NCBI RefSeq assembly: GCF_029227855.1
Contig: NZ_CP074356.1
Direction: 5' to 3' (one strand)
Source of the DNA: Escherichia coli
Lineage (GTDB): Bacteria; Pseudomonadota; Gammaproteobacteria; Enterobacterales; Enterobacteriaceae
DNA: 64,000 bases
Made by a program: the position numbers and the translations under genes. The notes below the pieces were generated by a model. It had not been told where the DNA came from and searched no databases. It worked only from the letters and a program-made list of their open reading frames with translations. This document shows positions 46,690-47,110 of the stretch, in pieces (the stretch's first letter is position 1; the number at the start of each line of letters is the position of its first letter).

Positions 46690-47110
46690 TAAACCATTTA
46701 TCAATAGGTAAGTACCGGAAATTATTCCAGTAGAATATTTTCAGGCGATTGCCTATTAATAAATACATTATTGATAGATAAGTGCCTTCTGTGATTTGTC
46801 CGCAAATCACAGAAGATGAAAACCTATCAATACGGGATATTTTCACGGAAATACCAATTAATACTCCAGAATATCTCCTGACCATATACTCTGAAACCTG
46901 TAAGAACTGCATCAGATATTGAGAGACCATATAGATATAAGTCTGAAATTATTTTGTTTCCAATGATTTCAGGCGAAAACCTATCAATGCATCTGTTTTC
47001 AATAGGCAGCCACCTTCCGTGATTAACATGTTAATCACGGAAGGTGAAAAGCTATCAATAATCGATATTTTCACGGAATTACCACTTAATACATCCCAAA
47101 AAATGCGCCA
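46690..47110. repeat. Iteron-like repeat block: six CTATCAAT-type motifs in both orientations around two long perfect palindromes
   Basis: tatcaatagg, attgatagat, cctatcaatac, cctatcaatgc, ttcaatagg and gctatcaataa; 30-bp palindrome 46786-46815 (cttctgtgatttg tccg caaatcacagaag) and 36-bp palindrome 47011-47046; ~45-bp unit gaaaaCctatcaata...atattttcacggaaTtaccaAttaatac is duplicated. Confidence 0.5.
47011..47046. repeat. Perfect 36-bp palindrome
   Basis: caccttccgtgattaacatgttaatcacggaaggtg equals its own reverse complement. Confidence 0.8.

What the first reader, a model, noticed from the sequence alone, without database searches (positions are those of the whole stretch)
46690..47110. Iteron-like CTATCAAT repeats around 30-bp and 36-bp perfect palindromes
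Within ~420 bp there are six copies of a CTATCAAT-type motif in both orientations, a duplicated ~45-bp unit, and two long perfect palindromes. The arrangement resembles replication-origin iterons, a partition site, or operator arrays rather than coding sequence; the six-frame ORFs here (46646-46930, 46949-47182) are low-complexity and probably spurious.
Basis: seen in the sequence. Interest (0 to 1): 0.5.

Follow-up and report, generated by a model that had tools for sequence, protein, structure and literature searches.

The report
Hairpin-repeat spacer in a mobilizable island
The repeats and palindromes are real: they form a non-coding array of about 62-bp mirror-symmetric DNA modules between the integrase gene and a relaxase-like gene of a decayed E. 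coli genomic island, an optional lineage-specific add-on of untested function rather than a replication origin.

Summary
In 46600-47200 there are four exact and three near copies of CTATCAAT, a perfect 36-bp palindrome (47011-47046), a 13-4-13 interrupted palindrome (46786-46815, so not perfect), and a tandem duplication of 131 bp at 228-bp spacing. All of this far exceeds chance.

The window is E. coli chromosome. The region lies in an island at tRNA-Asn, between a frameshifted P4-like integrase gene and a convergent, frameshifted PF12834+PF12835 gene of the MpsA / MOB_M atypical-relaxase type.

The repeats resolve into 1-3 tandem modules. Each has outer boxes TTGATAG and CTATCAAT exactly 23 bp either side of a central palindrome. 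That palindrome differs completely between modules but stays symmetric. A conserved tail of about 47 bp follows.

The array is non-coding and matches no Rfam family, plasmid or phage. It is not dispersed in the genome and lacks DnaA, IHF, Rep and Par features. Relatives in Salmonella, Klebsiella, Erwinia and Citrobacter have only about 200 bp here, so it is a dispensable insertion specific to Escherichia and some Salmonella.

My best guess is an accessory DNA-level protein-binding or hairpin site array of the island's mobility module. A neutral palindromic spacer is nearly as likely. An origin or partition role is not supported.

The parts
45034..45109 (+). tRNA-Asn, the integration site (attL side) of the island
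   Evidence: ARAGORN and Rfam. No second copy of its 3' end lies to the right, so no attR was detected.
45271..46532 (+). P4-like tyrosine integrase gene, frameshifted here (context)
   Evidence: Two overlapping ORFs in different frames. Annotated as a frameshifted integrase in the 100%-identical genome. The intact homologue matches PRK09692.
46565..46594 (+). Integrase terminator hairpin, conserved in all relatives; marks the left edge of the inserted AT-rich DNA
   Evidence: Terminator scan; present in every locus.
46648..46673 (.). Module A: degenerate remnant of palindrome P1. P1 is intact elsewhere, with 23-nt perfect arms extending to 31 pairs with one mismatch in L003, and 13-17-nt arms in L009, L017 and L018.
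46685..46775 (.). Long imperfect inverted repeat (43-nt arms, 77% complementary) that pairs the CAATCAAT/TTATCAAT boxes of module A with CCTATTAAT...ATTGATAG of module B
   Evidence: the repeat finder pair I1; DNA fold z = -6.3.
46786..46815 (.). Module B core: palindrome P2, 13-4-13 (CTTCTGTGATTTG tccg CAAATCACAGAAG). Flanked by TTGATAG (46771-46777) and CTATCAAT (46824-46831), each 23 bp from the centre.
46818..46864 (+). Module B tail: GAAAACCTATCAATACGGGATATTTTCACGGAAATACCAATTAATAC
   Evidence: 87% identical to tail C. The same tail follows P1-, P2- and P3-type palindromes in other islands.
46907..46915 (+). CTGCATCAG, a variant of the strand-biased 9-mer YTGYRYCAG that runs through the whole integrase-relaxase spacer
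46943..46972 (.). Hairpin CTGAAATTATT-N8-AATGATTTCAG between modules B and C
46979..47006 (.). Module C box pair CCTATCAAT-N9-TTCAATAGG. In L006 it is a clean 14-7-14 inverted repeat.
47011..47046 (.). Module C core: palindrome P3, 36 bp and perfect. CTATCAAT (47052-47059) lies 23 bp from its centre.
   Evidence: In L006 the centre is ACGCGT instead of ACATGT, a change on both arms.
47046..47092 (+). Module C tail: GAAAAGCTATCAATAATCGATATTTTCACGGAATTACCACTTAATAC
47148..47185 (+). Two CTGCACCAG 9-mers (47148, 47177) at the right edge of the inserted AT-rich DNA. AAAATAATCTGCACCAG at 47169-47185 corresponds to TTTTTATTTGCACCAG, which directly follows the terminator in relatives with a short spacer.
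   Evidence: the correspondence is from reading the sequences.
47235..47395 (.). Conserved non-coding block (GGCCCTTT repeats; GCGCCAG...CTGGCGC inverted repeat). This is the only part of the spacer kept across genera (context).
47870..48487 (-). PF12834+PF12835 tyrosine-recombinase-fold gene (MpsA / MOB_M relaxase type), truncated here (context)
   Evidence: Pfam on the intact 294-aa homologue. PF12835 is used as the MpsA-type 'INT_DTR_like' signature in PMC10484663. Annotated as frameshifted.
48543..48670 (-). EFASI motif directly upstream of that gene (context)
   Evidence: Rfam, 100.8 bits; same position in five other loci.

Best explanation
The region is a tandem array of two full modules and one degraded module, each a dyad-symmetric non-coding DNA unit.

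**Anatomy of a module**
- A pair of outer boxes, TTGATAG on the left and CTATCAAT on the right, each exactly 23 bp from a symmetry centre.
- A central palindrome of 26-46 bp. Its sequence differs completely between modules, but its two arms stay matched.
- A-rich linkers on the same strand on both sides of the palindrome.
- A conserved one-sided tail of about 47 bp that repeats both box types.

**Where it sits:** the array is DNA inserted between the terminator of a P4-like integrase gene and a conserved block downstream of a convergent MpsA / MOB_M-type relaxase-like gene. The host element is a tRNA-integrated mobilizable island, here decayed.

**Most likely mechanism (inferred, not shown):** it works at the DNA level as an accessory cis-acting site array of the island's mobility module.
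- A symmetric protein complex, island-encoded or host, would bind the fixed outer boxes.
- The central palindromes could extrude as hairpins when the DNA is single-stranded or supercoiled.
- This would modulate transfer, recombination or expression of the two converging mobility genes.

It is an optional add-on of the Escherichia and some Salmonella branch of the island family, not a core part.
For: - **Real and structured:**
- **Fixed spacing:** the outer boxes lie exactly 23 bp from the dyad centre in most of the 13 distinct module copies tabulated. These come from nine loci and carry five unrelated central palindromes. The P3-type copies keep the right box at 23 bp but have a degenerate left box, and one Salmonella copy has a divergent right box.
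- **One tail, many palindromes:** the same tail follows different palindromes in islands at tRNA-Asn, tRNA-Lys and tRNA-Asp.
- **Symmetry kept by paired changes:** ACATGT to ACGCGT in L006, and CTGTGATTTG/CAAATCACAG to TTTTGATTTG/CAAATCAAAA in L017.
- **DNA level rather than RNA:** hairpin mismatches show no G:T bias over A:C (5 against 4, plus 8 others), and there is no Rfam match.
- **Non-coding:**
- **Tied to this island backbone:** 431-449 of 5426 E. coli genomes carry it, at 1-4 places each, with none on plasmids in the E. coli genome set. In every context inspected it lies between an integrase gene and the PF12835 gene.
- **The neighbour is a relaxase type:**. A Pantoea MPF_G plasmid with no recognised relaxase carries the same gene with EFASI upstream and structured STAXI motifs on both sides.
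Against: - No binding protein has been identified.
- The boxes do not recur at the EFASI-containing region upstream of the relaxase-like gene, or at any promoter of the island.
- Sequence divergence of the palindrome and tail between islands (74-88% identity) is only slightly above that of four-fold sites in the neighbouring gene (70-74%). Purifying selection is therefore weak or absent.
- Copy number varies from 0 to 3 by simple deletion or recombination between modules.
- Most genera lack the array.
- Arm symmetry and fixed length could be kept by template-switch repair of quasi-palindromes (established knowledge, not tested here) without any selection.
Confidence: 0.35

Rival explanations
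1. Neutral or selfish palindromic spacer. AT-rich DNA between two converging genes grew by tandem and inverted duplication, and its palindromes are kept symmetric by template-switch repair. At most it serves generically as a buffer between convergent transcripts or as AT-rich DNA bound by H-NS.
For: - Divergence is close to that of four-fold sites in the neighbouring gene.
- Copy number varies from 0 to 3, with clean recombinational collapse in L008 and partial losses in L004, L006 and L009.
- It is absent from most relatives, whose spacer is about 200 bp.
- It persists unchanged in islands whose integrase and relaxase-like genes are dead.
- Symmetry runs right through the palindrome centre, which neither hairpin formation nor protein binding would require.
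Against: - The exact 23-bp box spacing is kept across unrelated central palindromes, including between Escherichia and Salmonella.
- The A-rich linkers stay on the same strand in all modules, which simple palindrome homogenisation would erase (sequences).
- Tails are better conserved than the cores.
- Matches to the H-NS high-affinity motif are no more frequent than expected.
Confidence: 0.3
2. Single-strand DNA signals. After conjugative transfer the hairpins fold in the incoming strand and act as priming sites or single-strand promoters for complementary-strand synthesis, as ssi/Frpo elements of plasmids do and as STAXI motifs are thought to do.
For: - Single-strand folding is very strong (z -6 to -10).
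- The element is a relaxase-carrying mobilizable island.
- In a related conjugative MPF_G plasmid, the position just downstream of the homologous gene holds a STAXI motif.
- The same-strand A-rich linkers would form a strand-specific internal loop.
Against: - The outer stem (TTGATAG with CTATCAA) is not kept by compensatory change in several modules, from reading the sequences.
- There is no Rfam STAXI or other match.
- No -35/-10 pair is recognisable in the stems, and promoter-like sites are not enriched (7 found against 4.7 expected).
- Most relatives lack it.
- The transferred strand and the direction of transfer are unknown.
Confidence: 0.15
3. Replication origin with iterons, or a partition (centromere-like) site.
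For: The region is AT-rich (29-35% GC), carries repeated short motifs and dyads, and sits on a mobile element. TTTTCAC-type boxes differ by one base from the P4 alpha-protein iteron TGTTCACC (recalled from memory, not tested).
Against: - No Rep, primase or ParAB gene is annotated in any island of the family examined.
- DnaA boxes are at or below expectation, and there is no full IHF site, no GATC and no 13-mer.
- The repeats are in mixed orientation and unevenly spaced.
- There is no similar DNA in plasmids or phages.
- Most relatives lack it.
Confidence: 0.05
4. RNA element: a small RNA, a 3'-UTR stabiliser or an RNase III site in read-through transcripts from the integrase or relaxase operon.
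For: The region lies between convergent genes. The hairpins are stable. Two other structured motifs (EFASI, C4) lie on the same island.
Against: - No Rfam family reaches significance; the only hits are spurious microRNA-type hairpin matches.
- There is no T-tract after any hairpin on either strand.
- There is no G:U-type bias in mismatches.
- The integrase gene has its own terminator upstream of the array.
Confidence: 0.05

Closest known systems
Mobilization module of Salmonella Genomic Island 1 (mpsA-mpsB, oriT, sgm-sRNA) and other MOB_M systems (pIGRK MobK, pCW3 TcpM)
   Same: - A tyrosine-recombinase-fold relaxase-type gene lies next to an integrase on a tRNA- or gene-integrated mobilizable island.
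- A structured RNA motif lies directly upstream of that gene.
- Inverted repeats lie in neighbouring non-coding DNA (PMC6414798, PMC9299015, PMC8152469, bioRxiv 10.64898/2026.01.13.699239).
   Different: - The known oriTs lie upstream of the relaxase gene. That of SGI1 is short (125 bp) and GC-rich.
- This array lies downstream, is AT-rich and about 600 bp long, and is missing from most relatives.
Extended oriT regions of conjugative plasmids with accessory-protein site arrays (for example F oriT with TraM, TraY and IHF sites)
   Same: AT-rich DNA of several hundred bp with multiple dyads and repeated boxes next to a transfer gene. This is from established knowledge.
   Different: No nick site, accessory protein or IHF consensus was identified, and the array is dispensable within its own family.
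Iteron origins and P4 ori/crr
   Same: Short motifs repeated in both orientations inside duplicated units on an element with a P4-type integrase.
   Different: There is no initiator gene, no regular direct-repeat phasing and no DnaA boxes. The true strand-biased repeat of the spacer is a different 9-mer, CTGCACCAG.
REP/BIME-type intergenic palindromic units
   Same: Stable palindromes between convergent genes, with variable copy number.
   Different: The array is not dispersed. It occurs at 1-4 places per genome, and in every context inspected within this island backbone. The modules are also much longer and have fixed outer boxes.
STAXI, Frpo and ssi single-strand DNA motifs of conjugative elements
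   Same: Strongly folding DNA next to transfer genes. STAXI flanks the homologous gene on a Pantoea MPF_G plasmid.
   Different: There is no sequence or structure match, and perfect palindromes stand in place of the imperfect promoter-bearing hairpins.

Membership tests
Iteron-type replication origin | Cognate initiator (Rep or primase) gene on the same element | tested here: not met
   No such gene is annotated in any of about 15 related islands.
Iteron-type replication origin | Three or more direct repeats of about 17-22 bp in regular phase, with DnaA boxes and an AT-rich unwinding element | tested here: not met
   The repeats are 8-mers in both orientations at irregular spacing. DnaA-box matches number 1 against 1.9 expected, and there is no 13-mer and no GATC. 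Only the AT-richness is met.
Iteron-type replication origin | Supports autonomous replication or exerts incompatibility | not testable with these tools
   Needs cloning into a conditional replicon.
Partition (centromere-like) site | Adjacent parA/parB-type genes whose product binds the repeats | tested here: not met
   No Par genes are present in any related island (same calls as above).
oriT of MOB_M (MpsA/MobK/TcpM-type) relaxases | Lies in the first intergenic region upstream of the relaxase gene | tested here: not met
   The array lies downstream of the gene's stop codon. The upstream intergenic region holds EFASI.
oriT of MOB_M (MpsA/MobK/TcpM-type) relaxases | Conserved together with the relaxase across the family | tested here: not met
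   The array is absent in Salmonella, Klebsiella, Erwinia, Pseudocitrobacter, Citrobacter, Cedecea and Serratia relatives.
oriT of MOB_M (MpsA/MobK/TcpM-type) relaxases | Confers mobilization in cis and is nicked by the relaxase | not testable with these tools
   Needs mating assays with a helper element.
MOB_M relaxase (for the neighbouring gene) | PF12835 (Integrase_1) signature, tyrosine-recombinase fold, next to an integrase | tested here: met
   PF12834 at 2.9e-39 and PF12835 at 3.9e-59. The gene converges on the integrase gene in all loci. The link between this signature and MpsA comes from PMC10484663. No direct alignment to MpsA was made.
REP/BIME or MITE-type dispersed repeat | Many copies scattered in unrelated intergenic sites | tested here: not met
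   There are 587 places in 449 genomes, with a median of 1 and a maximum of 3 per genome. All inspected places lie in the same backbone.
Intrinsic terminator | GC-rich hairpin followed by a T-run | tested here: not met
   Only the integrase terminator at 46565-46594 qualifies. No T-run follows P2, P3 or the other hairpins on either strand.
Known structured RNA (Rfam 15) | Match to a covariance model | tested here: not met
   There is nothing at gathering score, and only spurious hairpin hits at E of 0.1 or more.
Protein-coding gene | ORF conserved in frame among orthologues, or a family match | tested here: not met
   Indels of 14, 8 and 1 nt, shifting ORF boundaries, and no family hit.

The most novel reading that the evidence does not exclude
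The modules are recognition sites for one of the island's tyrosine-recombinase-fold proteins, either the MOB_M-type relaxase or the integrase. Fixed outer boxes would position the protein, and a fast-evolving symmetric core would give each site its own identity. That would make the integrase-relaxase spacer a secondary recombination, cassette-capture or transfer site. It would fit the AAA-ATPase gene inserted at the same spot between 20-bp direct repeats in Cedecea and Citrobacter.
Probability: 0.1. Interest if true: 0.6.

Novelty: new variant of a known kind. Interest (0 to 1): 0.3.

Why it matters
Islands with this backbone carry T6SS, Rhs toxin, adhesin and anti-phage cargo in E. coli and Salmonella. 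How they move is only now being worked out, with the MOB_M relaxases recognised in 2026 preprints. If the dyad modules are bound by a mobility protein, they would mark a cis element that tunes transfer or recombination in one branch of a very common island family. Their hypervariable symmetric cores with fixed spacing would then be an unusual site design. If they are neutral, they are a neat example of palindrome maintenance without function. Either way the practical consequence is small: the region should not be annotated as genes or as an origin.

Tried and rejected
- **Coding sequence:** rejected. ORFs are not conserved in frame and have no family hits. A 29-aa ORF in the neighbouring AT-rich stretch is broken in the window and in L002.
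- **Known RNA family:** none.
- **Plasmid or phage homologue, or mimicry of a helper oriT:** no similar DNA in PLSDB, INPHARED or IMG/VR. The one plasmid hit is a 473-kb Salmonella replicon carrying the same island type.
- **Dispersed repeat or MITE:** rejected. No terminal duplication was seen by eye.
- **IHF, DnaA, Dam and H-NS consensus sites:** none above expectation.
- **Terminators and sigma-70 promoters:** not enriched.
- **RNA-type wobble bias in hairpin mismatches:** none.
- **Shared boxes at island promoters, at the attL-integrase spacer or upstream of the relaxase-like gene:** none.
- **Solved structures for the PF12835 protein:** no sequence match.
- **Supplementary oriT sequences of the 2026 preprint:** not held. 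SGI1, pIGRK and SGI-4 oriT sequences could not be fetched, so direct comparison with known MOB_M oriTs was not possible.
- **Resemblances to hix sites, parS, the P4 iteron, and CRP, LexA, Fur, KdgR and ExuR operators:** considered from memory and dropped as partial or wrong in spacing.
- **Metagenome scan for the tail motif:** 18 loci, but only the same few palindrome types. This is too little diversity for formal covariation statistics.

Full report
**What the window is**

The window is E. coli chromosome. It carries the his leader, a cobalamin riboswitch, cobUST, nac, cbl, yeeO and three tRNA-Asn genes. It is 100% identical over the tested stretch to several pig and human isolates.

A genomic island starts at the tRNA-Asn gene at 45034-45109. 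In order, it carries:
- a P4-like integrase gene, frameshifted (45271-46532, + strand);
- 1.3 kb without genes;
- a convergent gene for a PF12834+PF12835 protein, truncated here (47870-48487, - strand);
- an EFASI motif directly upstream of that gene;
- a Ner-like gene, a gene for a 153-aa protein, and a C4 antisense RNA;
- an Rhs toxin gene.

No copy of the tRNA 3' end lies to the right. The island is therefore decayed and probably immobile.

**Check of the observation**

Everything described is present.
- CTATCAAT occurs exactly four times in 290 bp, and seven times in the whole 64-kb window where 1.7 are expected. There are three more one-mismatch copies inside the stated range.
- Against a model of the local AT-rich composition the expectation is 0.05.
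- The 36-bp palindrome at 47011-47046 is perfect.
- The '30-bp palindrome' is 13-nt arms around a 4-nt asymmetric centre at 46786-46815.
- The '45-bp duplicated unit' is the best-kept part (87% identity) of a 131-bp tandem duplication at 228-bp spacing.
- As single-stranded DNA the region folds far better than shuffled sequence (z = -6.9), and single modules give z = -6 to -10.

**Anatomy**

I compared the window with islands from other E. coli strains, E. whittamii (L008), E. albertii (L009), one Salmonella replicon (L005) and 18 metagenome contigs. The region resolves into tandem modules. Each module has four parts:
- a central palindrome;
- outer boxes TT(G/A)AT(A/T)G on the left and CTATCAAT on the right;
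- A-rich linkers on the same strand on both sides;
- a conserved tail of about 47 bp, GAAAAYCTATCAATA..GATATTTTCACGGAAATACCAATTAATAC.

The outer boxes lie exactly 23 bp from the symmetry centre in most of the 13 distinct module copies tabulated. This holds although the central palindromes fall into at least five unrelated sequence types. The P3-type copies keep the right box at 23 bp but have a degenerate left box.

Differences between orthologous palindromes are paired on both arms. Examples are ACATGT to ACGCGT, and CTGTGATTTG/CAAATCACAG to TTTTGATTTG/CAAATCAAAA.

A second box, TTC(C/T)GTGA(T/A), makes up the arms of two palindromes and recurs inverted in each tail. Six of its nine occurrences in the window lie here.

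The window holds a degraded module A (46648-46709), module B (46752-46864) and module C (46979-47092).

**What it is not**

- **Not coding.** Orthologous copies differ by indels of 14, 8 and 1 nt. ORF boundaries shift from strain to strain, and no protein family matches.
- **Not a known RNA, and no sign of RNA-level selection.** There is no Rfam match, no T-tracts after the hairpins, and no excess of G:T over A:C mismatches.
- **Not a dispersed repeat.** About 450 of 5426 complete E. coli genomes carry it, at one to four places each, with none on plasmids in the E. coli genome set. In every case inspected it lies in the same backbone, at tRNA-Asn, tRNA-Lys or tRNA-Asp.
- **No counterpart in phages or plasmids.** The only plasmid hit is a large Salmonella replicon with the same island type.
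- **No origin or centromere features.** There is no initiator or Par gene in any related island. There are no DnaA boxes, no full IHF site, no GATC, and no regular direct-repeat phasing (and the annotation calls).

**Context that decides its status**

The neighbouring 294-aa protein has Pfam domains Phage_int_SAM_2 and Integrase_1.
- PF12835 is the signature used for the SGI1 atypical relaxase MpsA (PMC10484663).
- A 2026 preprint reports that such MOB_M relaxases are the commonest relaxases in enterobacterial chromosomes. They nearly always sit next to an integrase, in mobilizable islands or MPF_G conjugative elements.
- Consistent with this, a Pantoea MPF_G plasmid with no recognised relaxase carries a homologue, with EFASI upstream and STAXI motifs on both sides.

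Relatives of the island in Salmonella, Klebsiella, Erwinia, Pseudocitrobacter and others keep the same convergent gene pair, but with only about 200 bp between the genes. That short spacer holds the integrase terminator, a few CTGCRCCAG 9-mers and a conserved GGCCCTTT-rich block.

The palindrome array, roughly 46595-47168, is therefore an insertion specific to Escherichia and some Salmonella islands. A second AT-rich stretch at 47400-47870 is likewise an insertion.
- At the same spot Cedecea and Citrobacter carry an AAA-ATPase gene flanked by a 20-bp direct repeat. Serratia carries a different insert that appears to include a small ORF.
- Module number varies from zero to three through deletions and recombination between modules.
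- Identity between islands in the palindromes and tails (74-88%) is only a little above that at four-fold sites of the neighbouring gene (70-74%). The conserved block reaches 86-98%.

**Explanation**

The features that argue for function are these:
- the invariant 23-bp spacing of sequence-conserved outer boxes around cores that have diverged completely;
- the same-strand A-rich linkers, which palindrome homogenisation would erase;
- the recurring tail.

They point to a DNA-level site for a symmetric protein complex, with cores able to form hairpins. I take this as the most likely reading: an accessory cis-acting array of the island's mobility module, comparable in kind to the accessory-site arrays of extended plasmid oriT regions. 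I give it only about one chance in three.

The reasons for caution are that no protein is identified, the boxes recur nowhere else on the island, selection looks weak, and the array is dispensable.

The near-equal rival is a neutral palindromic spacer kept symmetric by template-switch repair. Single-strand priming or promoter hairpins used after transfer are a third possibility. An origin, partition site, RNA element or gene is unlikely.

**Novelty**

Repeated dyad arrays on mobile elements are a known kind. This module design and its place in MOB_M islands are, as far as the searched libraries show, undescribed. The function is untested and the expected surprise is modest.

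Noticed in passing
window 48543-48670 (-); also L010 4812-4939, L017 7874-8002, L019 3808-3936, L023 3809-3937, L045 3729-3878: The EFASI motif sits 50-110 nt upstream of the PF12835 (MpsA / MOB_M-type) gene in every locus tested, including a Pantoea MPF_G plasmid. In SGI1 the same position holds the sgm-sRNA domain and oriT. EFASI may therefore be the counterpart of that sRNA or origin of transfer.
   Followed up: partly
window 47235-47395: A non-coding block is conserved across genera even where the spacer is only about 200 bp. It has GGCCCTTT-type repeats all on one strand and a 7-bp GC-rich inverted repeat (GCGCCAG...CTGGCGC). It is 86-98% identical between islands whose relaxase-like gene is about 72% identical at four-fold sites. 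It is a better candidate for a core cis site than the palindrome array.
   Followed up: partly
window 46907, 47148, 47177, 47204, 47239, 47370, 47813 (+): The 9-mer YTGYRYCAG (CTGCACCAG) is strongly strand-biased: 7 forward against 1 reverse in the 1.3-kb spacer, compared with 19 and 16 in the whole window. It is present in all lineages, including the 200-bp spacers. This is the real iteron-like direct repeat of the region.
   Followed up: partly
L013 41-826 and L023 41-826 of the extracted spacers (Cedecea, Citrobacter): An AAA_28 ATPase gene is inserted at the same intergenic position, bounded by a direct repeat of about 20 bp, GG(A/T)TCTGCTTTTTATTTGCAC. The repeat ends inside a CTGCACCAG-type 9-mer, which suggests site-specific insertion at this spot.
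   Followed up: no
window 47400-47870: A second AT-rich insertion is better conserved (84-96%) than the palindrome array. It contains the dyad AGTGATTACAgGGTAATCACT (47688-47708) abutting a TATAAT at 47708-47713, preceded by a CTATTAAT box. No conserved small ORF was found.
   Followed up: partly
window 50104-50192 (-); L019 2160-2344, L023 2156-2340, L017 9471-9660: A C4 antisense RNA, with isrK beside it in other loci, heads the operon of the 153-aa and Ner-like genes. This is the P1/P4-type immunity RNA arrangement on a non-phage island.
   Followed up: no
L045 3151-3299 and 4940-5090 (Pantoea plasmid pGABEKP28_3): STAXI motifs lie on both sides of the PF12835 gene of a plasmid typed as MPF_G but 'non-mobilizable'. 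This fits the claim that PF12835 proteins are the overlooked relaxases of such elements.
   Followed up: no
window 45271-46532 and 47870-48487: Both mobility genes of the island are pseudogenes, and no attR repeat of the tRNA-Asn 3' end was found in the window. The Rhs island is fixed in this lineage.
   Followed up: partly
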